Source of the DNA: a virus | Lineage: Duplodnaviria > Heunggongvirae > Uroviricota > Caudoviricetes | DNA: 41,599 nt | Reading direction: 5' to 3' (one strand) | IMG/VR virus record: IMGVR_UViG_2740892231_000012 | Shown here: one piece after another, positions 2,163 through 31,630 of the stretch | Layout of the letters: each line of letters starts with the position of its first letter | Numbering within the stretch: the stretch's first letter is position 1 | The notes under the pieces: model-generated | The model's database searches: none | Told to the model about the DNA's origin: nothing | The model's input: the letters and a program-made list of their open reading frames with translations, nothing else | Position numbers and translations under genes: made by a program

Positions 2163-2197
2163 GAATATTCTCCTTTTGCAGGTATATTGCCCCGTTA

Positions 2198-6810: not shown

Positions 6811-6844
6811 TTCAGAGGGTGCATTCAGCACCCTTTTCTGTGGT

Positions 6845-7756: not shown

Positions 7757-8316
7757 TAAATATTCTCCTCTTCGTGACTGTTTGCATATACGTAAATAAA
7801 CGTCTGCCATGCAGGCTTATAACGGTTCAGAATACATTCCAGCGCACCACCCTCATAAATACGCAGCGGGGTGAGAATATCATCCAGCACATTCATATTC
7901 CGGTAGCCGGTTTCACTGTTTATCGTGACAATACTGACCCACTGTGAATCCGGTGATGGCTGAATATCTATTTCATAACCAAACTCTGCCGCAAACCGGA
8001 TATAAAATTCACGGTTCAGCGAAGGCTTCATCCGGTATTTATTCCCGGCATAACGCTGTCGTTCTGTGATGGTGGCTCCGGCCATATCACACTCGGGAAG
8101 GCCGAGATAACGCTCCCAGTCTTCCAGAAGCAGACGGGAACTGTCAGGGAAACGTTCTGCCAGCAGTTGTTTTCCCGTCCATGCAACACGTTCGGTGGAA
8201 TGGCTGAGGCCAAGGCATAACGCAGCCAGTACGGATGACGGCCGCTTGTCCCAGGCCAGTCCGTCAGGCAGCAACTGCAACAGGGCGCGCTGATGCGGAG
8301 TGAGGGTTACAGCCAT
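7756..8316 (-). CDS. Baseplate protein (Mu gp48-like)
   Basis: 186-aa ORF placed between the baseplate J-like gene and the tail fibre gene, as in Mu; translationally coupled to both. Confidence 0.6.
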   Translation of the reverse strand: MAVTLTPHQRALLQLLPDGLAWDKRPSSVLAALCLGLSHSTERVAWTGKQLLAERFPDSSRLLLEDWERYLGLPECDMAGATITERQRYAGNKYRMKPSLNREFYIRFAAEFGYEIDIQPSPDSQWVSIVTINSETGYRNMNVLDDILTPLRIYEGGALECILNRYKPAWQTFIYVYANSHEEENI

Positions 8317-9392
8317 GTGATTTCCCCCACTGTCAGCAGCTCACTGTCCCCCGCCTGAACCGACGTCAGCGGGCTGCGCACTTCAAAATCCTCCAGATTT
8401 TTCACCCCCGCCACGGCACGCCAGAAAGACGACGCCAGAACCAGACCGCCGGGCCGGGATTCGTTGTATAACAGGTCAGTCAGTGCCTGTTTTACGGCCG
8501 CCTGATTCTCCGGTGTTTTCGGGATGATCCTGATACTGAAGGGCACTGGCTTATTGGTCAGTTTAAACACGGTCACCGTCGGCCCCAGCGGCTGACCGAC
8601 AGGCTGACCGGTCGCCGGATCATCATGACTGCGGATATAATCCGCCACACGTTTCACATCACCTTCACCGGGAAAAATGTCCGGGTTGTTGTCCTGAACG
8701 AACGTCACCCCCACGCTGCCCGCCTGCGGCCATTCCGGGCGGCACCATGCCCGCGTCACCCCCGGCACTTCACGCGCCCAGCGTTCAAAATCGTACTGCG
8801 TGCCGCCGGACGGCGGATTCTGCACCCGGAAAACCAGGCGGGAAAGCAGCTCCGGCACTGTTTCCACATCCGCACCACCGGTGATCCCTGTTCCGGTCAC
8901 CGTGGCCGTCTGGTTGATCCCCGCCTGCGGAGTGACAAACGTCAGTTTCGTCCCTGCCGGGGCATTTCCCGCACGACCGGCACTTTCGGCCTCCACACTG
9001 ACATTCAGCGTACCGGCTTTACCGGTCAGTGAGGAGGTGATGCGGTAAACCACGCCGTCACTGCGCTGGAGAAGCACACCTTCCGTGATCCCCGCATCCG
9101 TGGTCAGCATCAGCTGAACCGGCCCGTCACCCCGTGAGGCGGGTTTACGCATGACACCCCAGAAAGCGCAGTGCTTCAGCAACTCGGCTTCATCGGCTTC
9201 TGTCGGGATGATCTGACGTGCAATCCAGGCCAGATGTTCATGCTCCTGTGCAGACAATCCTGCCTGAGCATACGCAATGGCATTCAGGGTGGTTTCATTC
9301 ACGCCCGGCTGCGAACCGGGAAGACGCTGGCTGATATCCTGCTGTGTCTGCGTGATTAATTGTGCCAGCGGTAAAGGCTGATAAGGCATCAC
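8307..9392 (-). CDS. Baseplate J-like wedge protein (Mu gp47-like)
   Basis: 361 aa, at the baseplate J position between the gp46-like and gp48-like genes. Confidence 0.7.
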   Translation of the reverse strand: MMPYQPLPLAQLITQTQQDISQRLPGSQPGVNETTLNAIAYAQAGLSAQEHEHLAWIARQIIPTEADEAELLKHCAFWGVMRKPASRGDGPVQLMLTTDAGITEGVLLQRSDGVVYRITSSLTGKAGTLNVSVEAESAGRAGNAPAGTKLTFVTPQAGINQTATVTGTGITGGADVETVPELLSRLVFRVQNPPSGGTQYDFERWAREVPGVTRAWCRPEWPQAGSVGVTFVQDNNPDIFPGEGDVKRVADYIRSHDDPATGQPVGQPLGPTVTVFKLTNKPVPFSIRIIPKTPENQAAVKQALTDLLYNESRPGGLVLASSFWRAVAGVKNLEDFEVRSPLTSVQAGDSELLTVGEITWL

Positions 9393-9826
9393 TCCCCCTT
9401 AAGATCAGCATAAAAAATCATGGGTCTTACCGAACCATCAGGCAGGGTTATGCGCACCGAAAGCGCCAGCCGCGCGTGTCCCACACGTTCTGCATGACAG
9501 ACCACGGATGACGCCACGCCATCCTGACTGAGCCAGCCCAGCGCCTCATCCGCGTAGGCACGGGCACGGCTTATCACGGAGACCAGCGTTTTTTCCCGGC
9601 TGAGAAGCCACAGACGGGAGCCAATGGGGCGCGGGCGAAAACTGTCTCCCCACCATCCCCGGCGGTCACGTGTGCCATCAGGGATTTCATCCGATGCCAG
9701 TGCCCGGCGGTCAGTAAACAGTGAAATCAGAACCGCTGTCAGCAGGCTGTCATCTGTCAGCAGGTCTGCACCGTTCAGTTGCAGCGAACCGCATCCCTGA
9801 TCCCACACAATTGCAATATCAGCCAT
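9389..9826 (-). CDS. Baseplate protein (Mu gp46 / gpW-like)
   Basis: Probable start MADIAIVWDQG...; the ORF track extends further 5' into the upstream gene. Position between the spike and J-like genes. Confidence 0.6.
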   Translation of the reverse strand: MADIAIVWDQGCGSLQLNGADLLTDDSLLTAVLISLFTDRRALASDEIPDGTRDRRGWWGDSFRPRPIGSRLWLLSREKTLVSVISRARAYADEALGWLSQDGVASSVVCHAERVGHARLALSVRITLPDGSVRPMIFYADLKGE

Positions 9827-10433
9827 TCTCCGGCGCTCCTGTCTTACTGCCTTCACCGTTATCATGATGTACATGGCCGGAATAGGTGATTCCCGCAATA
9901 ACAGCCTCGGACATCGTGAACGTACCCTGTGATTTTCCTGTGCCGTCAATGGTCAGATTACCTTTGATATGCAGGTTTTTATCCACCGTGACATTGCCCG
10001 TAAAGGTGGCTTCCGGTGTATCCACCTGAACACCTTCATCGGCGTAAATTTCCAGCGTCTTACAGGTCACAATGATCCGACCGTTCTTTGTCAGACGTAT
10101 ACGGTGCCCCTCATGGTGATACACGCCGGTATCTCCGGCAGTGAGTCCGGTCGGGCGACTGCGGCGGTCTTCCACCACAAGCACCACGGTCTGATCACGC
10201 TGCCCGCCCAGACAGGCAAAAAAGGTTTCCGCACCCGGCAGGGGAACACTGATCTGCCCGTACTGCTGGGGACGCTCCACATCATCAAAGGTTTCGCCGT
10301 CCATGCCGGTGAGCTGCACATTCTGCATTTTCAGTTCGTCATGTGTGCCGGTCAGAACGCCCCGGCCAAACAGCAGGCGAATGCCGCGCGTTACCGGGGC
10401 AATCAGGCGGCTGAACACTTCATCATTCATCAA
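9819..10433 (-). CDS. Baseplate assembly protein V / central spike (Mu gp45-like)
   Basis: 204 aa with Gly-rich C-terminal spike-like region (...NLTIDGTGKSQG...GHVHHDNGEG); syntenic position. Confidence 0.7.
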   Translation of the reverse strand: MMNDEVFSRLIAPVTRGIRLLFGRGVLTGTHDELKMQNVQLTGMDGETFDDVERPQQYGQISVPLPGAETFFACLGGQRDQTVVLVVEDRRSRPTGLTAGDTGVYHHEGHRIRLTKNGRIIVTCKTLEIYADEGVQVDTPEATFTGNVTVDKNLHIKGNLTIDGTGKSQGTFTMSEAVIAGITYSGHVHHDNGEGSKTGAPENG

Positions 10434-11547
10434 AGCTAATCCCCTGTTTTTTCATCTGCTGGCGAATAAAGGCATCAACATCATCACCGGAACCACCACG
10501 GCCCTTACTGTCCGGCTCTGCCGGAACGATAAAGCCGTCACGCGGTGCCAGTACCAGCCGGGTGACTTCCCCGTTCTGCTCATCCAGTAAAAACTCCACC
10601 TGGCAGACCAGCAGTTCAGTCTGTTCGATACCGAAACGCAGGGCTGAAACACCGGTCAGCAGATTGACATCCCATAACCGGCCATCATCCCGGAACCAGC
10701 CACGCACGGTGGCGGAAAACCGTTCTGAACGGGCAACCGCACGGCGCATCTCCCGCAGGGCGCGCTGCCGTGCACCGGTGGTGTCTGTCTGCTGATCGGC
10801 GAGGATGATTTTCGGCCGGTAGCGACCGATCTGCTCATCACTGATGATGCCCACTGGGGCCGCCAGCCGGGCGGCAGATTCGCTGTCTCCCCGTTTGCCA
10901 CCACCGCGTCCATGCCCCCGGACACGGTATTCGCTGTATCGTCCTCGCCAGTCCGTGTTGTAATCGGCATCAAGCAGGTTTTCCCCCAGCACCAGTCTGT
11001 CCGTCTGCTGATTTCCTGCCTGGGTGAACACCAGATCACCGTCAGCATTACTGGTCACCAGCACCCCACGATGCCGGGCCGCACGGGTCAGCGCATCCGC
11101 CACGGTTTCTGAGTTTTCCAGGGTAAAAGAGCTGAAGGGGCGTGCAGCCGTGTCGTCGTTAACCTGCCAGCGCACGGCTATTCCGAAGGGCGCACATAAA
11201 TCTGCGGCAATCTGTGCCAGCGTCCGGTTTCGCCACTGGCTGCCGGGATGGATGGCGGCACAGTCCACCAGGTCGCCGGTTTTATCCCGACCGTTAATGC
11301 TGATCTGATGACGGGTTGCACTGATCCGCTGACTGACCTGATCCAGCCAGCCACTGATGACAGTCTGCCCGTTAATTCTGAGCGTCAGGGACTGACCGGT
11401 CCGCAGGGCTGAGGGGATGCGCTCACCGGGCAGCATCAGCCCCAGTTCAAACGACCCGGCCAGATGCTCCAGAGAACGACGGACGCTTACCGTCAGCCAG
11501 CCGGAAAAAATACTGCCGCCAATATACAGCTCAATCCTGCTGCTCAC
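10423..11547 (-). CDS. Baseplate hub / late-control gpD-like protein (Mu gp44-like)
   Basis: 374 aa, immediately downstream of the DNA circulation protein, as in Mu. Confidence 0.7.
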   Translation of the reverse strand: MSSRIELYIGGSIFSGWLTVSVRRSLEHLAGSFELGLMLPGERIPSALRTGQSLTLRINGQTVISGWLDQVSQRISATRHQISINGRDKTGDLVDCAAIHPGSQWRNRTLAQIAADLCAPFGIAVRWQVNDDTAARPFSSFTLENSETVADALTRAARHRGVLVTSNADGDLVFTQAGNQQTDRLVLGENLLDADYNTDWRGRYSEYRVRGHGRGGGKRGDSESAARLAAPVGIISDEQIGRYRPKIILADQQTDTTGARQRALREMRRAVARSERFSATVRGWFRDDGRLWDVNLLTGVSALRFGIEQTELLVCQVEFLLDEQNGEVTRLVLAPRDGFIVPAEPDSKGRGGSGDDVDAFIRQQMKKQGISFDE

Positions 11548-12889
11548 TAATCACCTCCACACTGCGACCACCAGGAACAAAAACCGGATCAGGGATGTTG
11601 TTCCTGCGGACAAAATACTGCCAGCGACGGCTGTTGCCGGTGGCACGGTACAGCGTGACCAGTGCCGGTTCGGTGGTTCTCACCATGACCAGAGAAGCAC
11701 CGGGAAGATGCACGCTACGCGTTGTTAAATCCTCTGTCAGCGCAAGCCTGGCATCACGTAATGCAAGGGCGGTTCCGGTATGGCCCTGTGCGGACAAATC
11801 CAGCACCTGTTGTTCCAGGGCATCACTCAAATCCCGGTTGATCCGCTGCACATCGGCAGAACTTTCCAGCCAGGCCAGTCCGCCCTCCCGGTCTGTATCC
11901 TGAACGTGCGTCGCACTCTGCCGGACGACCTGATCCAGCAGTTTTCCTACCGTCTGCGCCTGTGACACCAGGGTTGCGCTCTGCATGACTGTCCGCAGCA
12001 GACGGATATTTTTCTGTGCCGCAGGCGTCAGACCAATCAGGATCTGCGGATCATCCTGCCCGCTGAGGGTATAACGCAGGGAAGAAAGTGTGCGGTACAG
12101 TTGCGGCATTGCCTGCTCTGTCATGCTGTCACGATTTGTGGTCAGGCTGCCGGACGGCGTTGCGGCCTTCCCGGTCAGTGACAGGGAAGGATCGCCGGGC
12201 AGTCCCGTCAGCACCGCAAACATTCCGGCCAGAGATTCAGCCATGCGACGGGGCGAATTAATCAGGGCGGCAGCATTCCCTTTCAGGGCAGTGAAACTGG
12301 CCGTAAAGGCACTGATATCCTGCACAATCCCCATTCCCGAAACGGCATTCTCCAGCGCATCAATTTTATCGCTGATGGTGTCGGTCATGGCCTGCACATC
12401 ATGCAGGCCGTCTGAAATCACTGTCCAGCTGTCTGAAAGCGTGTTAAACAACTGATTCATTGCTGAACCGCTTTTCTGCTCCAGAACGGCAGCCGTGTCT
12501 TCAGCCACCGCCGGTGCGGTATCGTCACTGGCGGGGATCGCGTTGATCGTGAACTCAACCGTTCCCTGTTCGCTGGCGTTATAACGGCTTTCAAAGCTGT
12601 TTATCAGCACATTTAAGGTGCCGTAATCCGGGTGCATCAGTTCACCGGCACCGGGTGCCCGCAGCGCATCCCGCAGGCGGCTTCGCTGCGTCTGAAGATC
12701 ATCGCCGATCACAAGAGCCGTGAATGTAAACTCCGGGAGTTTTGGCCCTAAATCATCCGCGCCGCCGCTTTCCCGCAGAGGATATTCACGGCGTACAATG
12801 TTACGTCCGCCCCGTTCCCGTTGTTCCTGATAAACCAGAAACGGTACACCACGAAAGGAGCCACGCCCCGGCGTGTCAGTAGAGGCCAT
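11531..12889 (-). CDS. DNA circulation protein (Mu gp43-like)
   Basis: 452 aa, directly downstream of the tape measure gene, as in Mu. Confidence 0.7.
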   Translation of the reverse strand: MASTDTPGRGSFRGVPFLVYQEQRERGGRNIVRREYPLRESGGADDLGPKLPEFTFTALVIGDDLQTQRSRLRDALRAPGAGELMHPDYGTLNVLINSFESRYNASEQGTVEFTINAIPASDDTAPAVAEDTAAVLEQKSGSAMNQLFNTLSDSWTVISDGLHDVQAMTDTISDKIDALENAVSGMGIVQDISAFTASFTALKGNAAALINSPRRMAESLAGMFAVLTGLPGDPSLSLTGKAATPSGSLTTNRDSMTEQAMPQLYRTLSSLRYTLSGQDDPQILIGLTPAAQKNIRLLRTVMQSATLVSQAQTVGKLLDQVVRQSATHVQDTDREGGLAWLESSADVQRINRDLSDALEQQVLDLSAQGHTGTALALRDARLALTEDLTTRSVHLPGASLVMVRTTEPALVTLYRATGNSRRWQYFVRRNNIPDPVFVPGGRSVEVISEQQD

Positions 12890-15097
12890 AGTTCCCTCCG
12901 TTCCAGACGTTCACATCCAGGCCATGCTGTGCGGTATCATCCACATCAATACTGCGTGCCCGCCAGCCTTCAGGGGCCACAAGCTCCACCCGTGCGGCGG
13001 TTTTCGCGGTGGCCTGTCCGCCATTTTCATCACTGCCCCGTAATTTCTGCCAGGCTTCGGTCAGCCATCCCCCCAGATAATCACCGAGATAACTGCCCAC
13101 CGTGGAGCCAATGGCAACCCCGACCGGACCGGCGGCAGCCCCCAGCGCGCCACCGGCGATACTTCCGGCAAGGGAACCCATGGCACCGGCTTTATCAGCT
13201 GCACTGGCGCTGTTGTCCAGCAGTACAGGAGCCGCCATGGCACCGGCCCACAGGGCACCACCGCCCAGCCGACCGGCACCACGGAACAACCCGGCAAAAC
13301 GCCCCAGCCCCATGCGGTTTCCGGCAGCCGAAAGCAGACCACCGGCACGGCTCATCATACGACCGAAGAAGCCCTGTTTACCGGCGCTCTCTGCCAGTTG
13401 TTCGCCTGCGGTCACAACGGTCGGGACACCCCGCCCACGTCCGGGGCCGCGTTTTTTACGGCCGCGCACGGTTTTGCCGTCACCGCTGACCACCACATCC
13501 CCGCCACCTGATGCCAGACCACCCGCAGGCCAGTTGGTGACCAGTACGGGCTGAACGGCAGCAGGATTTACCCCGGTAAGAAAGTTCATAAAACGCTGGC
13601 CGCGTCCTGGCTGCGTGCCCGGAACGGTGGTCTGCGGTTTACGAAAAGGCGAGGTCAGCACAGCGGCCGTGGATAACCCGTACCCCAACAATGCCGCCCC
13701 CGGTCGCAGTGCCCCAAGACCTATGGCGCGGACAGCCTTCAGCGCACGGGTGGCGAGATACATATACAGGAGATATTTCGCGGCGGTCTGTGCGCCCTGA
13801 CCAATGCGATCCAGCGCATCGCCATAACCAGCGTCACGCAATGCCTGAAGCGTTTCCCTGACTTTCTGAATGGCCCGGTAAAACCCCGTCGCTGCGTCTC
13901 TGGCATACTCAAACCCCTGATTCAGGGCTGAGGCTGTTTGTGTGGCCAGCTTGTCCTNNNNNNNNNNGCAATGCGATCCAGCGCATCGCCATAACCGGCG
14001 TCACGCAATGCCTGAAGCGTTTCCCTGACTTTCTGAATGGCCCGGTAAAAACCCGCCGCTGCGTCTCTGGCATACTCAAACCCCTGATTCAGGGCTGAGG
14101 CTGTTTGTGTGGCCAGCTTGTCCTGTAAGCCGCTTTTCTGTGCCGCATCGGCATAATCCAGGAAGCCTTTCAGGCTCTTTTTCAGGTTGTCAAATGGCCC
14201 TTTTGCCATTACTTCACGGGCAAATCCGTCCCAGACGTCGCCCATCATGGATGTCATCCCTGTCCATGAGTTCATGGCGTTTTTCTGGGCACCTTTTGCC
14301 TGTTCGGCCATCACCTGAAATAACAGCCGAATGCTGTCCGGTCCCAGTTTTCCTTTCTCGCCTTTCTCACGGATGATCTTCTGGTTTACACCCAGTTTAT
14401 CGGCCAGCAACTGGTAAACGTTTATCCCGTATCCGGTCAGGATACTGGCGTCCGCAGCCTGGATACTCTGGCGGGCAAACATCTGTTTGAGTTGCAGGGA
14501 CGCACCCTGTGCATCTGACAGTGACCAGCCGTGATAGCCGCCCTGATCCTGAAGCATGGTAATAAAGCGGCGGGCTTCCCTGTCACTCATACCGAACCCG
14601 CGACTGGAGGCGTATTCCTGCATAACCCCCGCCAGTCCCCAGGTGGTTTCCTTTGCGTTCTGTACCGCCCAGGCTTTCACTGCTTCCGTTTTTGCCGTAT
14701 CGCCATGATTAATGGCATTGAGACGCAGAATATAGTTCTCCATCTCTGCGGCCGGGCGGATAAAGGCTTTATTAAAACCATAGACCGCAGCCCCTCCTGC
14801 CAGCATCCCGTAAAGGTTGCTGAGACGTCCCAGCGTGCCGGTAATACTGCCCTGAAGACGGTCAAAATCCGACGTTACCGTGCGGATACTGCCACGGACA
14901 CCGGCAAGCGTACGCTGCATACGGGAGCCGACAAGCTCTGTCTCCTGACCGGCACGGCGGGCTGCATTTCCAATTCCACCCAGCCCCGTCCTGCCGACTC
15001 GGGAGAACGCCCCCAGCTCCTGTGACCACTGGCGGGATTTGGCAGAAACATTGCCGAGTAAATCGACAATCAGGGAGGCTTTCAGGTTTTTTGCCAT
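12876..15097 (-). CDS. Tail tape measure protein; interrupted by N10 gap at 13958-13967 with duplicated flanks
   Basis: Long, Ala/Gly-rich, largely helical ORF between the tail chaperone and DNA circulation genes. The track splits it into 391-aa and 321-aa pieces at the gap. Confidence 0.8.
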
Positions 15098-16089: not shown

Positions 16090-17589
16090 TCACAAAATGA
16101 AACGGATCTGTGCTGCCAGGAAGCGGAACTGGTTAACCAGATCCGGCGTGCATAACACGTCAAGACGGTTTCGATCTGACGCATTACGCTCCACAAGCAG
16201 ATTCTTTTTAAAGGTGTCCAGATTTTCGACCAGCCCGAGTTCCACCCACTCTTCACCCAGCGAAATTAACTGAAGCTTCATGATCTCCGGCGTCACGATA
16301 TTCTGACCGGCACGAACGGGCGTCCCGTCATCAGCCAGTTTATGGCGCGGAAAACGTTGTGTGATAAAAGTACGCAGGGAATAACGCAGCCAGGAGAGGG
16401 TGTAGATGGTTTCCACATCCAGATAGCTGGGATCACTTTCGCCGTACACGTTCTGGCGATACATGGTCACCTGACGTTCGATCTGAACCACATCACCGGC
16501 AGCCACACTGACCGTGGCAATCCCTCCCCACAGCAGACTGTTACGCTCTTCACGCGTCAGACGATCGGCCGGGGCCGGGGCCATGCGTGACGGAAGCGCC
16601 AGCGTCTGAAGCGGACGCGCAGGATCTGCCCCCAGAGACGGCGCACAGGTGGCGCAGACCGCCGCTGCCCAGAGGTAATCCGGTTCAGGGGCTTTGGGAA
16701 TGAATGTGCAGGTCGCCAGAAAATCATTGCGTTTTGCCCCGAATGCCTGCACCTCACCAAACGTGCCGGTATGCGCCATCCACAGCACACCGTCAGACAT
16801 TTTGGCCGGTCCCCAGCGTTTCAGAAGCTCATCACTGATGATTTTCAGGTTTGCATCATCCTTATAGGGCATGACGACATAGTTGTACTGGCGATCGCCC
16901 ATACCCGCCACGCTTCGGGTGATATCCGGGTTAGTGGCTTTTGTTTTGGGATACCCAAGTTCAATGGTCAGTCCACCCGGTGTGGTTTCTCCGTCATGAT
17001 AATTAACACGGATATCATGTACGGAACATTCACCGGTAAAACGGGCATTAATTCCCATACTTCCCTTGAGTCCGCTGGCGTTATCTGCTACCTGACCTGC
17101 ATAAGCACTGAAGGGCGCATCAGCATCGGCATTAATAACAGAGACCAGAGCGTCAATAAGCTCCTTACCTTTCTGCCCCTTCGTGACAGCCAGCAGATAA
17201 CGCCGACCGCCGATATAAATGTGCAGAACACCATCCTGAGAGGCGGTGCCAATTATATTCATGAGACATGCCTGAGCCTGACCGGTGCCGCTCCCCTGAG
17301 CAATGGCATACAGTTCAGCATCAGGATTGATGGCGATAAATTCCGCCACCATCAGGGCAATCATGGAGCCGCGCCCCCAGAATTCTGTTGCCTGAGACGC
17401 ACGGGTGATCCTGACCGGAACATCCAGAACACCGGTACCGTCCACGGCATTCTCTTTCATTCTCGCCTGACCAAACAGCAGTACACACTGACGCTGTGCC
17501 GGGGTGCCGGTGACAGCCATGGAGTTATTAAACTCAACCTCAATCAGCGGTATACGGCGGTCATTACCGATCCCGTCAAAATTAATCAT
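16090..17589 (-). CDS. Contractile tail sheath protein (Mu gp39-like)
   Basis: 499-aa ORF at the sheath position, with size matching Mu sheath. Confidence 0.85.
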   Translation of the reverse strand: MINFDGIGNDRRIPLIEVEFNNSMAVTGTPAQRQCVLLFGQARMKENAVDGTGVLDVPVRITRASQATEFWGRGSMIALMVAEFIAINPDAELYAIAQGSGTGQAQACLMNIIGTASQDGVLHIYIGGRRYLLAVTKGQKGKELIDALVSVINADADAPFSAYAGQVADNASGLKGSMGINARFTGECSVHDIRVNYHDGETTPGGLTIELGYPKTKATNPDITRSVAGMGDRQYNYVVMPYKDDANLKIISDELLKRWGPAKMSDGVLWMAHTGTFGEVQAFGAKRNDFLATCTFIPKAPEPDYLWAAAVCATCAPSLGADPARPLQTLALPSRMAPAPADRLTREERNSLLWGGIATVSVAAGDVVQIERQVTMYRQNVYGESDPSYLDVETIYTLSWLRYSLRTFITQRFPRHKLADDGTPVRAGQNIVTPEIMKLQLISLGEEWVELGLVENLDTFKKNLLVERNASDRNRLDVLCTPDLVNQFRFLAAQIRFIL

Positions 17590-17831
17590 TGCGGTTTCTC
17601 CTTATCGGATGCCGGTTGGGCGACCGGTTTTTCTGTCGCAGTCGTTGCATCCGCAGATACAGCCGGAGCCTCTTCAGCGGCTTTTTCAGCCTGAATGACA
17701 TCGCCGTCATCAAGACGCCGACACCAGAACGGCGTGAAGGGCTTTTCCTCCCCCTCCTGTGCCAGCGGGCGCATTGTGTCGGGATCACGAATCAGGCGTC
17801 CCGGCGCGGGTTTGATAAAGATGGTTTTCAT
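17586..17831 (-). CDS. Small conserved phage protein (Mu gp38-like)
   Basis: 81 aa, translationally coupled between the gp37-like and sheath genes. Confidence 0.5.
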   Translation of the reverse strand: MKTIFIKPAPGRLIRDPDTMRPLAQEGEEKPFTPFWCRRLDDGDVIQAEKAAEEAPAVSADATTATEKPVAQPASDKEKPQ

Positions 17832-18392
17832 TTACAGTTCCTCCGGCGGTTCGACCGCCGTTGTCGTGTTCCCCGGCAAATCAATATGTGCCTCAAACGG
17901 CGGCGTACCGGGCGGCTCCACAAAGGTTTCGTAATGACGCAGGAAGTCGTCCAGCGAGCTGATATCGGTCAGCGGTGCGATCATTTCCTCGCAGGAGAAA
18001 TAAAGCGCATACATCACCGCACCACTGTTCGCCTGGGTTTCGGTGTAACCGTTGACCGCCTTTTCAAAGTAAAGCGGTGAGGTTTTTTCTGTTCTGAAGC
18101 CGTTAAGCACGGCAATCAGCCGGGCCACAATCTGATACAGTCCGGGGCGGCTGGCCTCACGCCCGTTGAGCATGTCGCCAATGACGTAGAACACCCAGTG
18201 ACTGACCAGGCGACCACGGGTACGGCCTTCACCGGCACCCAGCCAGGCAACGTAGATCGCCGGGGCGTTAATCAGCATGCTGCGCAGTACGCCGTCGCTC
18301 CAGTCGCCGGGATGCGTGTCAACAGACACCAGTTCATTCCCGAAATACTCACGGATGCGGGCGATGTATGCCTGTTCGGTTTCCGTAATCAT
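17832..18392 (-). CDS. Virion morphogenesis / neck protein (Mu gp37-like)
   Basis: 186 aa, syntenic between the gp36-like gene and the sheath block. Confidence 0.6.
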   Translation of the reverse strand: MITETEQAYIARIREYFGNELVSVDTHPGDWSDGVLRSMLINAPAIYVAWLGAGEGRTRGRLVSHWVFYVIGDMLNGREASRPGLYQIVARLIAVLNGFRTEKTSPLYFEKAVNGYTETQANSGAVMYALYFSCEEMIAPLTDISSLDDFLRHYETFVEPPGTPPFEAHIDLPGNTTTAVEPPEEL

Positions 18393-18808
18393 ACGAAGCC
18401 CTTCTGGTTGCGCCCGAATACCGCTGCATCAGACTGAACCAGTGGTAAATCCCCGGATTCAGGGGCTGCACCGTTCGTATCCACACCGACCGGCACATTG
18501 CCGTTCATGACATCTTTCAGCCAGGCCAGCGCTTCACGGTAACGGTCACGCGCCTGATCGGAGGCTCGCTGATCGCACAGGTAATAAAAGGCAATCGCGC
18601 AACAGTGCTGAACAAGAACAGCCGGGATAACCTCCAGCGGCAGCGTGTAACGGGCGGACAGATAGCTGTCGATAAGGGCTGACGCATCTGTCAGCGCCCG
18701 GTTCAGCTTGCGCGTGTCCGGCTCATCCGAACGGGGCACAGCCAGTAACGGCCTGAGCAAATCCTCGCGGTAACGCGCCCGCATATCGGTTTCAGTGGCG
18801 TAATTCAT
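18389..18808 (-). CDS. Head-tail connector protein (Mu gp36-like)
   Basis: 139 aa, syntenic position downstream of the major head region. Confidence 0.6.
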   Translation of the reverse strand: MNYATETDMRARYREDLLRPLLAVPRSDEPDTRKLNRALTDASALIDSYLSARYTLPLEVIPAVLVQHCCAIAFYYLCDQRASDQARDRYREALAWLKDVMNGNVPVGVDTNGAAPESGDLPLVQSDAAVFGRNQKGFV

Positions 18809-19198
18809 GCACGGGCCTGTTTCGCTTTGTTACCGGTCTTTTTCCGGGGAGCATCCTGTCCGGCTTCGGCTTCGGCTTCGGCTTCGGCTTCGGCTTCGGC
18901 TTCGGCTTCGGCTTCGGCTNNNNNNNNNNCCGGCCACTGCATGAACCACACCCGCCACGCTCCCCGCATCATCAGCAGACGTCTGTAGTATTCGCACAGT
19001 GAGGCATGGCTCCGCCTCCAGTCGGGCAAGCTGCTCCGGGGTGACCTCAACCTGCTGACGTCCACGCGTGAACAGAAACCCCGCACGACGAAACGCCGAA
19101 CGACTGCAACGCACTTCTGCCAGCACCGTGACAGAATTGTCACCACTGACCTGAAGACCTGAATCATCTGTTGCTGCCACAGTGTGATGTTCATTCAT
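18805..19198 (-). CDS. Head-region protein with internal (Ala-Glu)n repeat (Mu gp35 position); frame uncertain across N10 gap at 18920-18929
   Basis: N-terminal part MNEHHTVAATDD... is in one frame; after the gap an (AE)n tract and basic tail GQDAPRKKTGNKAKQARA are in another frame. Confidence 0.45.
18859..18919. repeat. Tandem hexanucleotide repeat (GCTTCG)n of about 10 or more units, truncated by an N10 gap
   Basis: Directly visible as cggcttcggcttcgg... running into the gap; encodes (Ala-Glu)n on the minus strand. Confidence 0.9.
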
Positions 19199-19241
19199 AT
19201 TTGCCCTCCGCAGGGGCCGGGCCGTAAACCCGGCTCACCGT

Positions 19242-20189
19242 TTACAGATAATCCGCGACAACCAGCTCCAGCTTGCCCTTCATCTCGTTAGAGACGGTTG
19301 CGTTTCCGTCTGCGAACAGTTCACGCTCCAGCAGCTGCACCGCCTGTTTTTCCAGCGAGGTGGGGACAACAATATGGGTGGGTTTGATGCCGAGTTTGCG
19401 GCCACCGTCAGCGGTAAATTCGCGCATGGCTGACCAGCCGTGCCACAGTGCATCCAGCGTCAGCGGTGACTGCATCATGTAGGCCATCTGCCAGAAGCCG
19501 TAGCCCACATTGCGACGGGCGGAAGCACCGAACACAAATTCGTTATCGGTGAATGCGCGACCTTCATCGACTTTGGTCTGGGCAACCAGTTCAGCCTTAC
19601 GGCGATCCTGATAAATCAGCGGTTTTACCGCGCGGGAGCAGTCAAGCAGATACCAGGCCGGACCGCTGTAATCAGCCTGTGCGCCGACAGAGCCGGTTTT
19701 TGCCACAAACATATTGCTGACCATCTGCGCATCCCCGGAGCCATCCACTTTAGGGTAAACCGGATGTTCGGTATCAAAGAAGTTCTGACCGTCATAGCAG
19801 GCCGCACTGATCCCGTCACGCAGGGCAGCAAAGACCAGCTCATCCGGTTGTACCGCCGCAGCGCGCCCCATCTCCTGGAACAACGGGGAATAAATACCGA
19901 GGTTGTCGTCTTCGAAGTCATCGCGGCTAATGGCGACAGTGCCTTCAAAAGTTTTGTTCACGATGGCATAGCCATAGGCTTTCATCTTCTCGATGACGCG
20001 GGAGCCGATCCACTCACGGAACTGCGGGAACTGCCCCAGCCAGCCGTAGGTGTTGGATTTCGATGTGGAGGGCACGGTCATCGCAATTTTTTTATACTGC
20101 GACGGGGCCATGGACATCCCGGCCTGAAAATCAGAACGGTAGCCCGTCATCAGGGCGGTGATCATCGCCGGTGTAATCGGGGTAGGCAT
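19242..20189 (-). CDS. Major head subunit (Mu T-like)
   Basis: 315-aa ORF immediately downstream of the protease/scaffold gene, with size and position matching the Mu major head protein. Confidence 0.85.
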   Translation of the reverse strand: MPTPITPAMITALMTGYRSDFQAGMSMAPSQYKKIAMTVPSTSKSNTYGWLGQFPQFREWIGSRVIEKMKAYGYAIVNKTFEGTVAISRDDFEDDNLGIYSPLFQEMGRAAAVQPDELVFAALRDGISAACYDGQNFFDTEHPVYPKVDGSGDAQMVSNMFVAKTGSVGAQADYSGPAWYLLDCSRAVKPLIYQDRRKAELVAQTKVDEGRAFTDNEFVFGASARRNVGYGFWQMAYMMQSPLTLDALWHGWSAMREFTADGGRKLGIKPTHIVVPTSLEKQAVQLLERELFADGNATVSNEMKGKLELVVADYL

Positions 20190-21313
20190 TATTGCATTTC
20201 CTCTTTCATTTTCAGGAACTCGGCTTCGGTTTTACCCAGCAGTTTGGCGGCCGCGATATCTTCAGCCGACAGCGCAGCGGTGGCAGTCTTTTTATCCGGC
20301 ACGGTCACGGTGTCGGTCTGAAGAGAGGTCAGGGCCGCAACCGGCTGGCGGGCGTCAAGCTGTGCAGAAAGTGCCGCAACGCCAATCTGCCCGCCCAGTT
20401 GTTCCAGATAGCCGCGTTCGCTTTTGAAGATGCGCCCTTCGGATTCAGCCTTGTCCAGCACCTGCTCCAGCGTGGTGCTGCCGTGCTGCGCCGACAGCGC
20501 AACGTATTCGGTACGCAGGGCGTTATACGTTTCAACGGGCACGTATTTCGTCAGATCAATACTGCCGCCAGCCGGTGTGCCTTTTGCGGTTTCCAGCTCT
20601 GCCGACAGACTGGCGACCTGTGTTTTCAGGTTGTCGTGTGCATCCGCACGGGTTTTGATCCCGGTGAGGGCAGACAGCGCCGCCGTGCCCAGCTCCGGCG
20701 TAAATTCGTCACCGTCAGCCACGGTCAGACCGAGCGCCGTCAGCAACTGGCGTAATTGCTCATTCATGGAGGTATCCTTTAAAGGAGGGTTTAAGGCGTT
20801 ATAAAGGTCATCCGCCGACAGCGCGGCGACAGGATTCATGCCGGTCAGACCGGGGTCACCGGTAATAGCCAGCATCCGAAGTTCGACAGGTTCGCCGGTG
20901 TTCTCGTCATAGCCAATCACCGGTGAAAACCAGGGGAATTCGTTATTACGCAGATGTTCAAGGGCCGGAGGGTTCCACTTCGGGCGCACCTCGAAGCCAC
21001 GCTCTTCACTGAAGCGAAAATTCTCCGGTGAGGCCATCACAAAACCGGCAGCCGGTGCCTGATGCCCCTTAATCAGGGTCTGGTGGTTGTAGTCAATTTT
21101 CACCGGCTGATTGAGCGCCACAACCCGGGAGACCATGCGCTCAACGGCTGCATGGTTGATCAGCCAGCCCTCGGCCGGTTTTTCCGGGCGACCGTCACGG
21201 GCCTTTACCCGACCGGCTGGCATGATCTGACACCAGTCACCGTCCCCGTCTGCGGACAGGCTGATGGCATTCAGAATGGCATAAGCAAGTTTGGGCGTGT
21301 TTTTCGTCTTCAT
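20189..21313 (-). CDS. Head maturation protease / scaffold (Mu I-like)
   Basis: 374 aa with a protease-like N-terminal half and an Ala-rich helical C-terminal scaffold-like half; directly upstream of the major head gene. Confidence 0.8.
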   Translation of the reverse strand: MKTKNTPKLAYAILNAISLSADGDGDWCQIMPAGRVKARDGRPEKPAEGWLINHAAVERMVSRVVALNQPVKIDYNHQTLIKGHQAPAAGFVMASPENFRFSEERGFEVRPKWNPPALEHLRNNEFPWFSPVIGYDENTGEPVELRMLAITGDPGLTGMNPVAALSADDLYNALNPPLKDTSMNEQLRQLLTALGLTVADGDEFTPELGTAALSALTGIKTRADAHDNLKTQVASLSAELETAKGTPAGGSIDLTKYVPVETYNALRTEYVALSAQHGSTTLEQVLDKAESEGRIFKSERGYLEQLGGQIGVAALSAQLDARQPVAALTSLQTDTVTVPDKKTATAALSAEDIAAAKLLGKTEAEFLKMKEEMQ

Positions 21314-21963: not shown

Positions 21964-22081
21964 GTTGCCTCCTTAAAACTATCTGATTAAAATAAATACA
22001 GGCCGGTGTACTCTTAACTGGTAAAGCGGCATAAACCCTCAGGGGTCATATGTTTATGCGGGTTCGACCCCCGTCACCGGC

Positions 22082-23407
22082 TTACAATTTACCTTCCAGT
22101 AGTTCCAGCTTTCCGCCCTCTATTGCTTTTTCAATATCAAATTTATTTACCCGGTAAGCATTAATTACCACATCCAGCTTATCCGGCTGGCGCTTCACAC
22201 CATAAGGCGCATTGACGGCAATCTTTGCCGTTCCGTCACGGGTTTCAGTGATGTAAAGCAGGTTCTGATGGACATGATCCCACAGCACGGCATCAGGCGC
22301 GGCCAGCATTGCCGGTAATCGCCCGAAATCCTCCGGCGTCAGGGCGATACCGTCATTCTGATGTTTCACGCTGTCCGCATGGAGCACATTTTTACCGCTC
22401 ATCGCCAGCAGGCGGGCCGGTGGCGTTCCCGTCCGGCTTTCCACCGCCTGCGCAATACTTTCGGTCATAAAGCCCAGCGTGCGGATATCGTTACCGCCTC
22501 GCCGGGTTTTCATGATGTTTTTTGCCCAGATGCGGAACGCCAGCTGCCGCTCCGGGCTGTTGTTCATCTCCTGAACCACCATTTCCCGTAACTCCGGGCT
22601 TTTCACCTCGATCAACTTGCGGAGCAGCGCCTGGTCTGTGCCGAACGCCGCCGAACCGGGGTTATATGACCAGCCCACATCCGGTGTCATGGTTCTGGTG
22701 CCATCTGAATATGTGGTCACCGGCATTTCTCTGACTTCCCCGGTCTGCTTATCCACGCCAGCCTCAACATTGCGGGTGGAGAGATGATCCTGACCGGATG
22801 AAACAGACAGCCCCATCGCATCCAGACGGGCCTGAGACAATGGCCGGACACGGCAGCGACAGTTCCAGCCATTGGGCGGGTAGTGTGTATTCCAGAACGG
22901 ATCGTCATAGCGGAATACCAGACCGTTAAGGGCGGAATGCGCCGGGCGGGTGCGGCTGTCCATCACCGCCACATACTGCCAGAACGGATGCGTGTCCGTG
23001 TTGTTCATCATCTGCGTGTAACGCCCGGCATTGTAAGCCACACGGGTGTTCACGTTGTAAATCAGCGCCAGACGGCGGGGACTGCCCAGCTGCACTTCTT
23101 CCGCGTTACCGGCACTGTCCACCACAATCTGTTTTCCCCACCATCCCAGCTTTTGCAGGCGGGGTGTCAGTGTGCGGATAAATGCTTTCTGTGAAATCCC
23201 CTCATCAACAGCACGCTGCACTTCCGCCTGTAGTGTGGTCAGTACGTCCAGGCGTGCCACTTTTGCCGCCGTGAATGAACGGGCATGAACATCTGCGTTT
23301 GTTTCGAACCAGTTCCAGCTGATATGCGCCCCTTTAGCGCGGAAGTATGCCACCGCCTCTTTTGAGGGAAGCGTGGCGGCATAACCTAAATCAATCCCCT
23401 GTGCCAT
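22082..23407 (-). CDS. Head morphogenesis / minor head protein (Mu F-like)
   Basis: 441 aa, immediately downstream of the portal gene; contains NGWNCRCR. Confidence 0.75.
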   Translation of the reverse strand: MAQGIDLGYAATLPSKEAVAYFRAKGAHISWNWFETNADVHARSFTAAKVARLDVLTTLQAEVQRAVDEGISQKAFIRTLTPRLQKLGWWGKQIVVDSAGNAEEVQLGSPRRLALIYNVNTRVAYNAGRYTQMMNNTDTHPFWQYVAVMDSRTRPAHSALNGLVFRYDDPFWNTHYPPNGWNCRCRVRPLSQARLDAMGLSVSSGQDHLSTRNVEAGVDKQTGEVREMPVTTYSDGTRTMTPDVGWSYNPGSAAFGTDQALLRKLIEVKSPELREMVVQEMNNSPERQLAFRIWAKNIMKTRRGGNDIRTLGFMTESIAQAVESRTGTPPARLLAMSGKNVLHADSVKHQNDGIALTPEDFGRLPAMLAAPDAVLWDHVHQNLLYITETRDGTAKIAVNAPYGVKRQPDKLDVVINAYRVNKFDIEKAIEGGKLELLEGKL

Positions 23408-24989: not shown

Positions 24990-26938
24990 CCCCGATCAAA
25001 TTCATGATATGCCTCATCGTCATCACGATAACCGCCCTCCATGGCCCGCGACCGCTCCGGCAGCGCCTGGCAGGCTGATTCATCCAGGATAAAGCCCTCC
25101 ATGTATGACGCCCGGTTTGCCATACAGAGCGCCACGGCAAAATCACCATGGCGGCGGGCGTTCACAGCCGTTGCGTTCTGGTCCTTCGTACGCCCCTTGT
25201 CGATTTGCGGGATACCGTTCACCACCTTCACATGGCGCAAATCATCAAGCGTGGTCTGATGGCGGGCGATGAGGATATTCTGATCCTCAAACTCGGCCTT
25301 CAGTTTTGGCATCCACTCGCCGTACCACTTCGGCGATAACATCACGCAGTCGATGATGTCCGGGCCAAAGGCCAGCAGCGCGGCTTCGGCCAGATAGCCG
25401 CCGTTACCGGTGGCGTCGAACGCCGCACCGACCAGCGCCGGAACGCGGGTCAGGATGTACATCATCACCTGCTCCTGCTGGGCATACGGCAGGTTGCGCA
25501 GCTCCACGCGAAACACCTCGCGTTTTGCCAGGGATTCAGTGATTTCCAGCAGCACAAAGCAGGAGAGGTCACCGGTGCGGGCAAAGTCTTCCCCGAAGCT
25601 GAAGCGGGAACGGGGATTTAACGCCTCTAAAAGCGGTTTTAAATGTTCTTCACACCAGGTTAAAACCTCCGATTCACGCAGCCATGTGGCACGGCTGATG
25701 AAGTCGTCCGGGGCTTCAAACGTCAGAATCGGGATGTCGCGGAGCATCGCCATTTCAATAAGCGCGTGAGGAATATAGGCACCGCCGGATTTTTTCGGGA
25801 TACAGCCGTATTCCTCGTCGGCATCCTCACGNNNNNNNNNNCGGCACGGCTGATGAAGTCGTCCGGGGCTTCAAACGTCAGAATCGGGATGTCGCGGATC
25901 ATCGCCATTTCAATAAGTGCGTGAGGAATATAGGCACCGCCGGATTTTTTCGGGATACAGCCGTATTCCTCGTCGGCATCCTCACGGGTCGGGGCGTTTT
26001 TGTAGAGATCATCACGCCACTTCTGCTCGCTTTCCGGTGACCATTCGCGGCCGGTGACATAACAGATACGACGGTACAGCCCGTCCGCAATGGCATCATC
26101 CAGGGTAATGCGGTGGACGCTGTAATCCTTGCGCCCTTCGCGGGCTTCCTGAATGTACTGATTAAACAGATTATCGACGCCGTTATGCGTGGAGATAATA
26201 CGCACGCGCGCGCCCCACATGGTGAGCGCCATTGCCGCCTTGAGAAGCTCATCCAGTGACTCGTGGAACGCGGCTTCATCAATCACCACATCCCCCTGAA
26301 GGCCGCGCAGGTTTGACGGACGGGAAGACAGTGCCTGAATTTTGAATCCACTGTTCGGAAAGCGGATCATGTAGGTCAGAATTTCTTCTTTTTTATCCCG
26401 ATCCCAGAAGGTCTGCTCATACACATCAGCATCTGCCAGCTGGTTAAAGGCACGGGAGAACAGTGCACAGGCAGAAATATATTCCAGCGCCATCTCCTGC
26501 TTTGACCCCACATAAAACACATTGCGGCCACCGCGCCGCTTCGGTTTTGCAGCGGTAATGACGTTACGCCCGGCTTCCGCCCAGGTAAGCCCGGTGCGGC
26601 GGGATTTTTCCGCGATGCAGACCTCGCTTTCATCCTCAAACCAGCGGGCCTGATAATCCAGAAATACCGGCATATCACCGGGCAAATCAAGGCTGTCCGG
26701 CACATCCACGCCCAGCAGGGCTTTTTCACCGGCCAGATCAATTTTGCGGGTNNNNNNNNNNTTCGCTTTCATCCTCAAACCAGCGGGCCTGATAATCCAG
26801 AAACACCGGCATATCACCGGGTAAATCAAGGCTGTCCGGCACATCCACGCCCAGCAGGGCTTTTTCACCGGCCAGATCAATTTTGCGGGTGGAGACGGTA
26901 TTCGTCAGTAAGGGGGAGAGTTCTTCGGCGTTATTCAT
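24980..26938 (-). CDS. Terminase large subunit; includes N10 gaps at 25832-25841 and 26751-26760 with duplicated flanks
   Basis: Large ORF split in the track into 66-, 385- and 257-aa pieces sharing repeated text at the gaps; position upstream of portal. Confidence 0.8.
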
Positions 26939-27625
26939 CAGGCTTTACCCAACAGAATCCCCTTAATACGGGACTCAAGCTGTTCACTCATCCCGTCCAC
27001 GCCGCGCAGCTCGTCGGTGACGGCGTTTGCCATCTCTTCAGCAAATGCGGCCCGGATTTCTTTTTCACGCTTAATGCTGCGCTCGGCGGCACTTTCCGCA
27101 CGCTGTGCTGACAGGAGGATGTCCTTAATAAGACGCATATCCACGTCGCTGTCACTGTTCAGGGATTCGGTCGCGGCACGCAGACGGCGGTACATCAGGG
27201 CGCGGGACATCTCCAGAATCAGCGCTGTGGTTTCACCGGTTGGCTTGTCTCCCAGTTCGGCCATCATGGCTTTTGTCTGCTCGCGTAAATCACGCAGGTT
27301 ACGGGCAATCAGCTCATTNNNNNNNNNNTGCAGTGGTTTCACCGGTCGGCTTGTCCCCCAGTTCGGCCATCATGGCTTTTGTCTGCTCGCGTAAATCACG
27401 CAGGTTACGGGCAATCAGCTCATTACGGGAGGCTTCCCGGCTGATGGCCGCCGGTGAAAGCTGCTGCTCTTCCGGCAGGCCCGCCTCACGGATCAGACGG
27501 TTGATTTCCTCGCGTATCTGGACCTGCGTCAGACGTTTTTCACGCAGCATTTCCAGCAGTGGCTTACGGATGCTGTCGGGGAGCAAATCCACCTTGCGCA
27601 CGCGTCCACGCGTCGGCTTGTCCAT
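26938..27625 (-). CDS. Putative terminase small subunit-like protein (Mu gp27-like); includes N10 gap at 27319-27328
   Basis: Basic N-terminus MDKPTRGRVRKVDLLPDSIRKPLLEMLREKRLTQ then helical region; ATGA overlap with the terminase large subunit start. Confidence 0.55.
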
Positions 27626-29292: not shown

Positions 29293-29879
29293 CCGCCGAA
29301 CGGCGGGCCTCAAGGCCGGGGAGTTTCACCCCCTTTGAATAAATCCAGCGGATATACTGCTTACAGGACGCGGGCATCTGCCCGGCATTGATCAGGCGCA
29401 GAAGCGTGGAGTTGCGGAAGTTCGTTTCACCGGCCCAGAAGATCCACGAAGCCAGCGCCACAGTCTGACCACGGGTAAGCGGCACCTGAACACGCCGATC
29501 AATGGCCGCAAAGGCCCATTTCATGTCCTTNNNNNNNNNNAAAGTTCGTTTCACCGGCCCAGAAGATCCACGAAGCCAGCGCCACCGTCTGACCACGGGT
29601 AAGCGGCACCTGAACACGCCGATCAATGGCCGCAAAGGCCCATTTCATGTCCTTTTCCAGTAGTTCCAGGCATTCTTCATCTGTCAGGGTCATACCCGGT
29701 TTCACATCCGGGCCGGTATGGCCGTAACAGATGGTGGGTGTACCGGTGGGATCGATATACGTGGAGTTTTCTTTCCCTTCCCAGTAACCGGTGTAATGCG
29801 TGGCAATCGTGAACGTCCCGGCACCGGCCAGAACAAGGGCAATCAGCTTTTTACGCAGTGGTGCGGGGAGTTTTGGCAT
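29255..29879 (-). CDS. SAR endolysin (lysozyme-like); includes N10 gap at 29530-29539 and duplicated flank
   Basis: N-terminal signal-anchor-release segment LIALVLAGAGTFTIATHY, then TICYGHTGPD... and ...VPLTRGQTVALASWIFWAGETNF..., similar to Mu Lys. Confidence 0.8.
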
Positions 29880-31432: not shown

Positions 31433-31630
31433 TATCTTTCTCCTTATTCACTCTTCTGCGGCATTCGGCACAGTCATCAGGGCTTTCAAATGTATCCGGC
31501 TCGCGATTATGAGCCAGATNNNNNNNNNNACTGGTTTTGCCGGTGACCGCCAGTAGTACGGATGTGTAGGTTTCATCATCCAGGGCAAGCTCGCGTTTTG
31601 CCACATGAATGGCAGATATCAGTTTCCCTC

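What the first reader, a model, noticed from the sequence alone, without database searches (positions are those of the whole stretch)
18805..19198. Expandable (GCTTCG)n repeat encoding an (Ala-Glu)n tract inside a head-region gene
At least ten perfect hexamer units run straight into an assembly gap, so the true length is unknown and probably variable. The repeat sits in a coding region, joining an N-terminal domain to a basic C-terminal tail. In-frame hexamer repeats change linker length without a frameshift.
Basis: seen in the sequence. Interest (0 to 1): 0.55.

Follow-up and report, generated by a model that had tools for sequence, protein, structure and literature searches.

The report
Known typing repeat in Mu-like prophage
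This is a real six-base repeat of variable length that adds Ala-Glu pairs to the floppy tail of a small protein of a Mu-like E. coli prophage, but it is already used as marker "EHC-5" to fingerprint pathogenic E. coli, so it is ordinary.

Summary
A perfect (CGGCTT)9.8 array lies at 18861-18919 and abuts a 10-N run at 18920-18929. On the minus strand it reads (GCC-GAA)n = (Ala-Glu)n.

- **Gene.** It is the homologue of phage Mu gp35 / Haemophilus HI1506 (Pfam FluMu_N). It lies between the major head gene T and the adaptor gene gp36 of a Mu-like E. coli prophage.
- **Reading frame.** In complete genomes one ORF spans the repeat. The frame break in the window comes only from the arbitrary N10 spacer; the real gap is 9+6k nt.
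- **Variation.** 228 of 5426 complete E. coli genomes carry the locus. The 86 full-length hits inspected show 27 length alleles, about 1 to 21 units and all in frame. Three near-clonal cattle isolates differ only by 13, 14 or 15 units.
- **Already known.** The published primers of MLVA locus EHC-5 (Izumiya 2010) flank the array in the window, so the repeat is a routine typing marker.
- **Protein.** The tract lies in a region predicted to be disordered. This lineage has lost the family's C-terminal helical domain and keeps only the acidic repeat and a short basic tail.

Most likely the repeat changes length by replication slippage and is tolerated in an unconstrained tail. The function of gp35 is unknown. 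Interest is low.

The parts
18805..19198 (-). Gene for the Mu gp35 / HI1506-family protein ('HI1506-related protein'), interrupted in the window by an N10 scaffold spacer
   Evidence: ORFs and translation. Single CDS in complete genomes. Pfam FluMu_N E=2.1e-9, 37.3 bits against a 25.8 cutoff. PDB 2OUT E=5.6e-5. Homology to Mu gp35.
18861..18919 (-). Perfect hexanucleotide array: (CGGCTT)9.8 on the + strand, (GCC GAA)n = (Ala-Glu)n on the coding strand. This is the variable core of MLVA locus EHC-5.
   Evidence: TRF: 100% matches, score 118. Alignment to complete genomes. Allele series.
18859..18864 (-). Degenerate terminal unit GCC GGA (Ala-Gly) that closes the array. Its GCC overlaps the TRF coordinates of the array.
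   Evidence: Sequence and alignment. (AG)n variants of this unit are expanded in some alleles.
18920..18929 (.). N10 scaffold spacer of arbitrary length. It hides TACAGATTT (codons for Gly-Thr-Asp-Leu, together with flanking bases) plus an unknown number of extra repeat units.
18983..19093 (-). Core of the FluMu_N domain (residues 36-72: FRRAGFLF..RGRQQVEVTPEQLARLEAEPCLTVRILQ)
   Evidence: Pfam hit. The AF2 model has pLDDT 85-89 over about residues 21-72, with beta strands and one helix. The best Foldseek hit is 2OUT.
18805..18858 (-). Short basic C-terminal tail QDAPRKKTGNKAKQARA plus stop. The TGA overlaps the ATG of gp36 (18806-18808) as ATGA.
   Evidence: Two tail classes (…KQARA and …KQAKKARA) exist among alleles.
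18969..18991 (-). Binding site of the EHC-5 forward primer ATACTACAGACGTCTGCTGATGA (0 mismatches)
   Evidence: Primer from PMC10062581 S5 Table; match.
18822..18844 (+). Binding site of the EHC-5 reverse primer CCGCTTTGTTACCGGTCTTTTTC (1 mismatch, at the 5' base)
   Evidence: Primer; match. Exact in L001.
19204..19209 (-). Shine-Dalgarno GGAGGG, 5 nt upstream of ATG 19198
   Evidence: Read from the sequence.

Best explanation
The feature is a coding variable-number tandem repeat. It is a perfect (GCC GAA)n array inside the gp35/HI1506-family gene of a Mu-like (Sp18-type) E. coli prophage, and it is the same locus that public-health laboratories type as MLVA marker EHC-5.

Shown:
- The array is real.
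- It lies in one ORF.
- Its copy number ranges from about 1 to about 21 among E. coli prophages, and it changes by single units between near-clonal isolates.
- All alleles stay in frame and keep the ATGA stop/start overlap with gp36.
- The tract lies in a segment with no predicted structure, in a lineage that has lost the family's C-terminal helical domain.

Inferred:
- Length changes arise by slipped-strand mispairing during replication of the perfect array. Neither strand forms a stable hairpin.
- The changes are tolerated, and essentially neutral, because the tract is a flexible acidic spacer or tail under little constraint.

The gap in the window exists because short-read assembly could not cross the array. 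The N10 is a placeholder.
For: - Array and gap.
- Single ORF in complete genomes, and a 9+6k gap.
- Spread of the locus: 228 of 5426 complete E. coli genomes carry it. The 86 full-length hits listed show 27 distinct lengths, 755-866 bp. All lengths differ by multiples of 3, and by multiples of 6 within each tail class.
- Direct counts of 1, 13, 14, 15, 16 and 20 perfect units.
- Stepwise change: strains 118, 114 and 131 have the same chromosomal position and are 100% identical over the rest of the ~830-nt stretch aligned. They differ only by 15, 14 or 13 units.
- Assembly reliability: two independent assemblies of strain 97-3250 give the same length.
- EHC-5 primers flank the array. Published EHC-5 values are 0 (absent) or 2-14 in O157 clades.
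- Disorder: AF2 pLDDT is 38-56 with no secondary structure from residue 78 to the end.
- Constraint: dN/dS over gp35 codons 1-92 is 0.64-0.95 between the most divergent lineage pairs, with most changes outside the folded core. It is 0.02-0.16 in the flanking T and gp36 genes.
- Other draft contigs also end inside long arrays (L026, L034).
- The repeat strands fold at only -1.8 and -3.1 kcal/mol, weaker than shuffles.
Against: - Neutrality is inferred, not measured. Long, pure arrays of 13-20 units persist in several diverged prophage lineages, which could reflect either selection or high mutation pressure.
- The function of gp35 is unknown, and gp35 was not resolved in the Mu virion cryo-EM study (PMC11915804). 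A length-dependent role therefore cannot be excluded.
- The copy number in the window's own genome is unknown.
- The original EHC-5 paper (Izumiya 2010) was not readable here. The identification rests on primers reprinted in PMC10062581.
Confidence: 0.87

Rival explanations
1. Adaptive tuning. The length of the acidic (Ala-Glu)n tract sets the reach or net charge between the RRAG-motif N-domain and the basic tail. The array would then act as a contingency locus that diversifies a head or neck accessory function, such as nucleic-acid or capsid binding.
For: Long pure arrays are kept in several diverged lineages. In this lineage the tract replaces the family's usual linker and C-terminal domain. 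HI1506 has basic patches on both domains; this comes from my own knowledge of PMID 17400915, which is cited in the Mu record.
Against: Alleles from 1 to about 21 units all occur in intact prophages, so no preferred length is visible. Interruptions (AG, VE, SE, TE, KA) are tolerated. The surrounding residues evolve at dN/dS near 1. The region is predicted to be disordered. No phenotype is known for gp35.
Confidence: 0.08
2. Assembly artefact. The array, or its apparent length, is produced by misassembly at a contig end of a poor scaffold.
For: The window is a scaffold of 16 pieces with 15 N10 spacers. 11 of the joins carry duplicated overlaps with 2-4% mismatches.
Against: The same array with identical flanks is present in hundreds of finished genomes. 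It is also amplified routinely by PCR as EHC-5.
Confidence: 0.02
3. Two separate genes with an intergenic repeat, or a frameshift-type on/off phase-variation switch.
For: In the window as given, the two halves are in different frames.
Against: The frame offset is caused by the 10-N placeholder. All resolved alleles are single ORFs. The unit is 6 nt, so slippage cannot shift the frame. All 86 measured lengths are congruent modulo 3.
Confidence: 0.01

Closest known systems
MLVA locus EHC-5 (Izumiya et al. 2010, Microbiol Immunol 54:569; primers reprinted in PMC10062581 S5 Table)
   Same: It is the same locus. Both primers bind in the window, facing each other across the array. The number of repeats is variable, and the locus is absent from many strains, as expected for a prophage-borne marker.
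   Different: Nothing material. In the one paper held here that mentions EHC-5, it is treated purely as a typing marker. The gene context (gp35 homologue, Ala-Glu tract, lost C-domain) is worked out here.
Phage Mu gp35 / Haemophilus FluMu gp35 = HI1506 (PDB 2OUT; Pfam PF17891 FluMu_N; PHROG 2498)
   Same: The N-terminal alpha/beta domain with the RRAG motif is homologous. The gene sits in the same position, between major head gene T and adaptor gene gp36. A low-complexity segment follows the domain.
   Different: Mu gp35, HI1506, and the Edwardsiella and metagenomic relatives carry a C-terminal helical domain of about 50 residues (…NTRIRA..L…FT..G.PKV.AV..ALG…Q I.AAL). The E. coli prophage protein lacks it and ends in (AE)n plus about 17-20 basic residues. 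It falls in a separate PHROG, 3622.
Classical E. coli O157 hexanucleotide VNTRs (TR1-TR7 / O157-3, -9, -10, -17, -19, -25, -37)
   Same: Same kind of element: perfect 6-bp arrays that change by slippage and are used for outbreak typing.
   Different: The repeat units differ (AAATAG, TGGCTC, TATCTT, TGCAAA, AAGGTG… against GCCGAA), and so do the loci. This one rides on a mobile Mu-like prophage, so it is often absent.

Membership tests
MLVA locus EHC-5 | Both published primers bind, convergently, on either side of the repeat | tested here: met
   Forward primer at 18969-18991 (-), 0 mismatches. Reverse primer at 18822-18844 (+), 1 mismatch at the 5' base. None expected by chance.
MLVA locus EHC-5 | Copy number polymorphic among EHEC strains, and locus absent (score 0) in many | tested here: met
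   27 length alleles among 86 complete-genome hits; the locus is present in 228 of 5426 genomes. Published values are 0 or 2-14.
MLVA locus EHC-5 | Repeat unit and genome coordinates as stated in the original description (Izumiya 2010) | not testable with these tools
   The original paper is not in the held library. Only the primers reprinted in PMC10062581 were available.
HI1506 / Mu gp35 family (Pfam FluMu_N, PF17891) | N-terminal FluMu_N domain above Pfam's gathering score | tested here: met
   37.3 bits against a 25.8 cutoff, E=2.1e-9. phmmer to 2OUT E=5.6e-5. Foldseek's top and only significant hit is 2OUT, E=8.8e-4.
HI1506 / Mu gp35 family (Pfam FluMu_N, PF17891) | Gene position between Mu-type major head gene (gpT) and gp36 | tested here: met
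   Pfam Mu-like_gpT upstream and Phage_Mu_Gp36 downstream. Same order in Mu.
HI1506 / Mu gp35 family (Pfam FluMu_N, PF17891) | Second, C-terminal helical domain joined by a flexible linker (the two-domain architecture of HI1506) | tested here: not met
   Alignment shows the ~50-residue C-domain in Mu gp35, Edwardsiella P0085 and most distant relatives. It is absent from all E. coli alleles. The protein is thus a member by its N-domain only, a truncated architectural variant.
Slippage-driven VNTR (microsatellite) | Stepwise gain or loss of whole units between otherwise identical sequences | tested here: met
   Strains 118, 114 and 131 are identical across the rest of the ~830-nt stretch aligned and differ only by 15, 14 or 13 units.
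Phase-variable (on/off) contingency locus | Unit length not divisible by 3, or promoter spacing altered, so that slippage switches expression | tested here: not met
   The unit is 6 nt and lies inside the ORF. All resolved alleles are intact ORFs.

The most novel reading that the evidence does not exclude
The acidic (Ala-Glu)n tract, paired with the basic tail, is a functional module that replaced the lost C-terminal domain of gp35. Its hypervariable length would then diversify a virion or assembly property of these Mu-like prophages, for example electrostatic interaction with DNA or the capsid. EHC-5 would be a true phage contingency locus rather than a neutral marker.
Probability: 0.06. Interest if true: 0.4.

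Novelty: already known. Interest (0 to 1): 0.12.

Why it matters
The value is mainly practical.
- **Assembly.** The repeat explains why short-read assemblies of this prophage break here. It also shows that the frame break seen in the window is an artefact.
- **Typing.** The array is a routine epidemiological marker for EHEC. Its frequent "0" score is explained by its location on a mobile Mu-like prophage.
- **Biology.** This prophage lineage carries a truncated gp35 (N-domain only) whose tail tolerates 1 to about 21 Ala-Glu pairs. This suggests that the C-terminal part of this still-uncharacterised Mu protein is dispensable or weakly constrained.

Tried and rejected
- **Literature.** Searches for HI1506, for Sp18 with tandem repeat, and for VNTR with Mu-like and O157 found nothing useful. 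The classical Noller TR1-TR7 units do not match this repeat. The EHC-6 forward primer does not bind the window.
- **Other genomes.** Species-representative genomes held only one relative, in Edwardsiella anguillarum, which has no repeat. The (AE)n form therefore looks confined to E. coli and Shigella prophages in these collections.
- **Protein function.**
  - NCBIfam gave no hit.
  - The matching PHROGs families have 'unknown function'.
  - Foldseek against the PDB gave only 2OUT and no virion component.
  - The Mu cryo-EM paper could not place gp35.
  No function can be assigned.
- **Hairpin-driven expansion.** Rejected: both strands of the array fold more weakly than shuffles.
- **Overlapping gene.** The +1 frame ORF (MNITLWQQQ…VQI*) is open in all 12 variants, but its product is not conserved. 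It is what ORF listing fused to the true C-terminus because of the N10 offset. Rejected as a gene.
- **RNA genes.** ARAGORN and Rfam found nothing in the window.

Full report
**Observation.**
The + strand carries a perfect period-6 array (CGGCTT)9.8 at 18861-18919: 59 nt, 100% matches, TRF score 118. It runs straight into ten Ns at 18920-18929. Nothing comparable exists elsewhere in the 41.6-kb window; the next best hexamer array has 2.7 copies.

Genes here are on the minus strand, where the array reads GCC GAA = Ala-Glu.
- **Start.** ATG at 19198 is preceded by GGAGGG at 19204-19209.
- **Stop.** TGA at 18805-18807 overlaps the ATG of the next gene as ATGA.

**The frame problem is an artefact.**
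In the window as given, the N-terminal part (MNEHH…HAVA) and the C-terminal part ((AE)9AGQDAPRKKTGNKAKQARA*) are in different frames. The window contains 15 runs of exactly 10 N. At 11 of them, the 96-201 nt after the run repeat the sequence before it, with 2-8 mismatches. Both copies map to a single stretch of a finished genome. The window is therefore a scaffold of overlapping contigs joined by placeholder spacers.

Alignment to two complete genomes shows identical flanks. The window lacks TACAGATTT plus an unknown number of units, so the real gap is 9+6k nt. That puts both halves in one frame.

**One gene, variable tract.**
megablast finds the locus in 228 of 5426 complete E. coli genomes. 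In all 100 listed rows it is annotated as a single CDS, 'HI1506-related protein'. Examples:

| Genome | Protein | Tract |
|---|---|---|
| CP040307 | 152 aa | …HAVAGTDL(AE)n AGQDAPRKKTGNKAEQARA, 20 perfect units |
| CP074804 | 144 aa | 16 perfect units |

Among the 86 full-length hits listed, the matched stretch takes 27 different lengths between 755 and 866 bp. All lengths are congruent modulo 3. They fall into two series spaced by 6 nt, which differ by a 9-nt tail variant (…KQARA versus …KQAKKARA). Direct counts range from 1 unit (CP145714, 'LAEAGQD') to 20.

Three cattle isolates with the locus at the same chromosomal position are identical over the rest of the ~830-nt stretch aligned. They differ only by 15, 14 or 13 units. 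This is the signature of stepwise slippage. Two independent assemblies of strain 97-3250 agree on the length.

IMG/VR contigs show the same picture in several diverged lineages. Two draft contigs end inside arrays of 12 and 14 units, just as the window's contig does.

**It is MLVA locus EHC-5.**
The supplement of PMC10062581 lists the primers used by Japanese public-health institutes (the system of Izumiya et al. 2010). They bind the window as follows.
- **EHC-5 forward,** ATACTACAGACGTCTGCTGATGA: 18969-18991 on the minus strand, no mismatch.
- **EHC-5 reverse,** CCGCTTTGTTACCGGTCTTTTTC: 18822-18844 on the plus strand, one mismatch at the 5' base.

The primers face each other across the array. 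In that study EHC-5 scores 0 in most O157 clades and 2-14 where present. This fits a marker carried by a mobile prophage. The classical TR1-TR7 loci have other units. The variable repeat is thus already known and in routine use.

**What the gene is.**
The neighbouring genes are as follows.

| Gene | Window coordinates |
|---|---|
| Mu-type protease I | 20189-21313 |
| Major head T | 19242-20189 |
| gp36 adaptor | 18389-18808 |
| gp37 | 17832-18392 |
| DUF2635 | 17586-17831 |
| Sheath | 16090-17589 |

The complete-genome context is a full Mu-like prophage with transposase, Gam, Mor, Com and the rest.

The N-terminal part matches Pfam FluMu_N above threshold. It also matches the NMR structure of HI1506, PDB 2OUT (E=5.6e-5), and Mu gp35 (51% identity over 41 residues).

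The Mu GenBank record labels gp35 'head-to-tail connector complex protein' by reference to the literature. However, the 2025 Mu cryo-EM study lists gp35 only as a probable structural protein whose structure could not be resolved, and finds no cement proteins on the capsid (PMC11915804). PHROGs gives 'unknown function'. Foldseek finds only 2OUT.

**Architecture.**
Mu gp35, the Edwardsiella homologue and most distant relatives share one layout: the N-domain, then a low-complexity linker, then a C-terminal helical domain of about 50 residues.

All E. coli alleles lack that domain. After …GTDL they have only (AE)n, then AGQDA, then a basic tail of about 12-15 residues. The motif 'LAEAGQDA' resembles 'TLAEAGG' in the Mu linker and the C-terminal '…AALNQDA' of Edwardsiella. 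This suggests an internal deletion followed by expansion of a pre-existing AEA seed (inference).

AlphaFold2 was run with a shallow alignment. It models residues ~21-72 confidently (pLDDT 85-89; strands plus one helix). It gives pLDDT 38-56 with no secondary structure from residue 78 to the end.

**Constraint.**
dN/dS was estimated between diverged prophage lineages.

| Region | dN/dS |
|---|---|
| gp35 homologue, codons 1-92, most divergent lineage pairs | 0.64-0.95 |
| Major head T, all pairs | 0.03-0.12 |
| gp36, all pairs | 0.02-0.16 |

The substitutions lie mostly outside the folded core: the core has 5 synonymous and 5 non-synonymous nucleotide changes, the rest 2 and 8. The disordered parts are therefore close to unconstrained, which fits tolerance of any tract length.

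Synonymous divergence in this gene is about three times lower than in its neighbours. I cannot explain this (noted).

**Mechanism.**
Neither strand of the array forms a stable hairpin: -1.8 and -3.1 kcal/mol, weaker than shuffles. Simple slipped-strand mispairing on a perfect array is the most economical mechanism. Because the unit is 6 nt, the ORF and its translational coupling to gp36 are always preserved, so it cannot act as an on/off switch.

I regard the variation as tolerated rather than selected, with confidence about 0.87 for the whole explanation. A tuning role for the acidic tract cannot be excluded (about 0.06-0.08), because the function of gp35 is unknown.

**Verdict.**
The feature is a known typing VNTR in a prophage accessory gene. 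It is already known and of low interest.

Noticed in passing
window 4843-4852, 5383-5392, 6599-6608, 13958-13967, 25832-25841, 26752-26761, 27319-27328, 29531-29540, 30842-30851, 32357-32366, 40027-40036: At 11 of the 15 N10 spacers, the 96-201 nt after the Ns repeat the sequence before them with 2-8 mismatches. Both copies map to one stretch of a finished genome. The apparent tandem duplications of period 182, 184 and 211 bp reported by TRF (5212-5564, 30669-31025, 32160-32567) are therefore unmerged contig overlaps, not biology. The 2-4% mismatch suggests that two related prophage copies or strains were mixed in the assembly.
   Followed up: yes
window 30852-31519 and 31530-32014: Two consecutive scaffold pieces end in the same 25-mer, and both map to the same endpoint in CP074804. 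The second matches at only 89% over its last 196 nt. It looks like a redundant or alternative contig, possibly from a second, diverged Mu-like copy.
   Followed up: partly
window 6609-14180: The tape-measure and baseplate side is only 77-84% identical to the otherwise ~97-100% identical prophage of CP074804. Positions 13377-14180 have no match at all. The tail module is mosaic.
   Followed up: no
window 18930-19194 (minus strand, +1 frame): An alternative ORF starts 4 nt after the true ATG (MNITLWQQQ…VQI*, 92 codons) and overlaps the whole N-domain. It is open in all 12 sequence variants examined, but its product is not conserved. It is probably a GC-rich chance ORF. It is the frame that the ORF listing fused to the true C-terminus in the window.
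   Followed up: partly
window 18930-19198 compared with 19242-20189 and 18389-18808 (via loci L010, L020, L028, L030, L031, L001): The gp35 homologue has dN/dS of about 0.6-0.95, and a dS about three times lower than that of the flanking major head and gp36 genes (dN/dS 0.02-0.16). The relaxed protein constraint fits a disordered accessory protein. The low synonymous divergence is unexplained.
   Followed up: partly
L001 319-399 and L003 17318-17397 (equivalent to about window 22000-22100): PGAP annotates a 'tRNA-OTHER' on the opposite strand, between the head-morphogenesis (F-like) and virion-morphogenesis (G-like) genes. ARAGORN and Rfam find no RNA gene anywhere in the window.
   Followed up: partly
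window 19199-19241 (minus strand): A GC-rich hairpin (GCCGGGUU…) lies between the stop of major head gene T and the start of the gp35 homologue. Its energy is -21 kcal/mol, z is only -1.3, and there is no U tract. Phage Mu has a predicted terminator at the same position.
   Followed up: partly
proteins P0097, P0101, P0106 (metagenomic relatives): Some distant relatives carry two tandem FluMu_N domains at the C-terminus of longer proteins. P0098 pairs one FluMu_N domain with a coiled-coil-like segment and a basic tail. The domain is thus used in several architectures.
   Followed up: no
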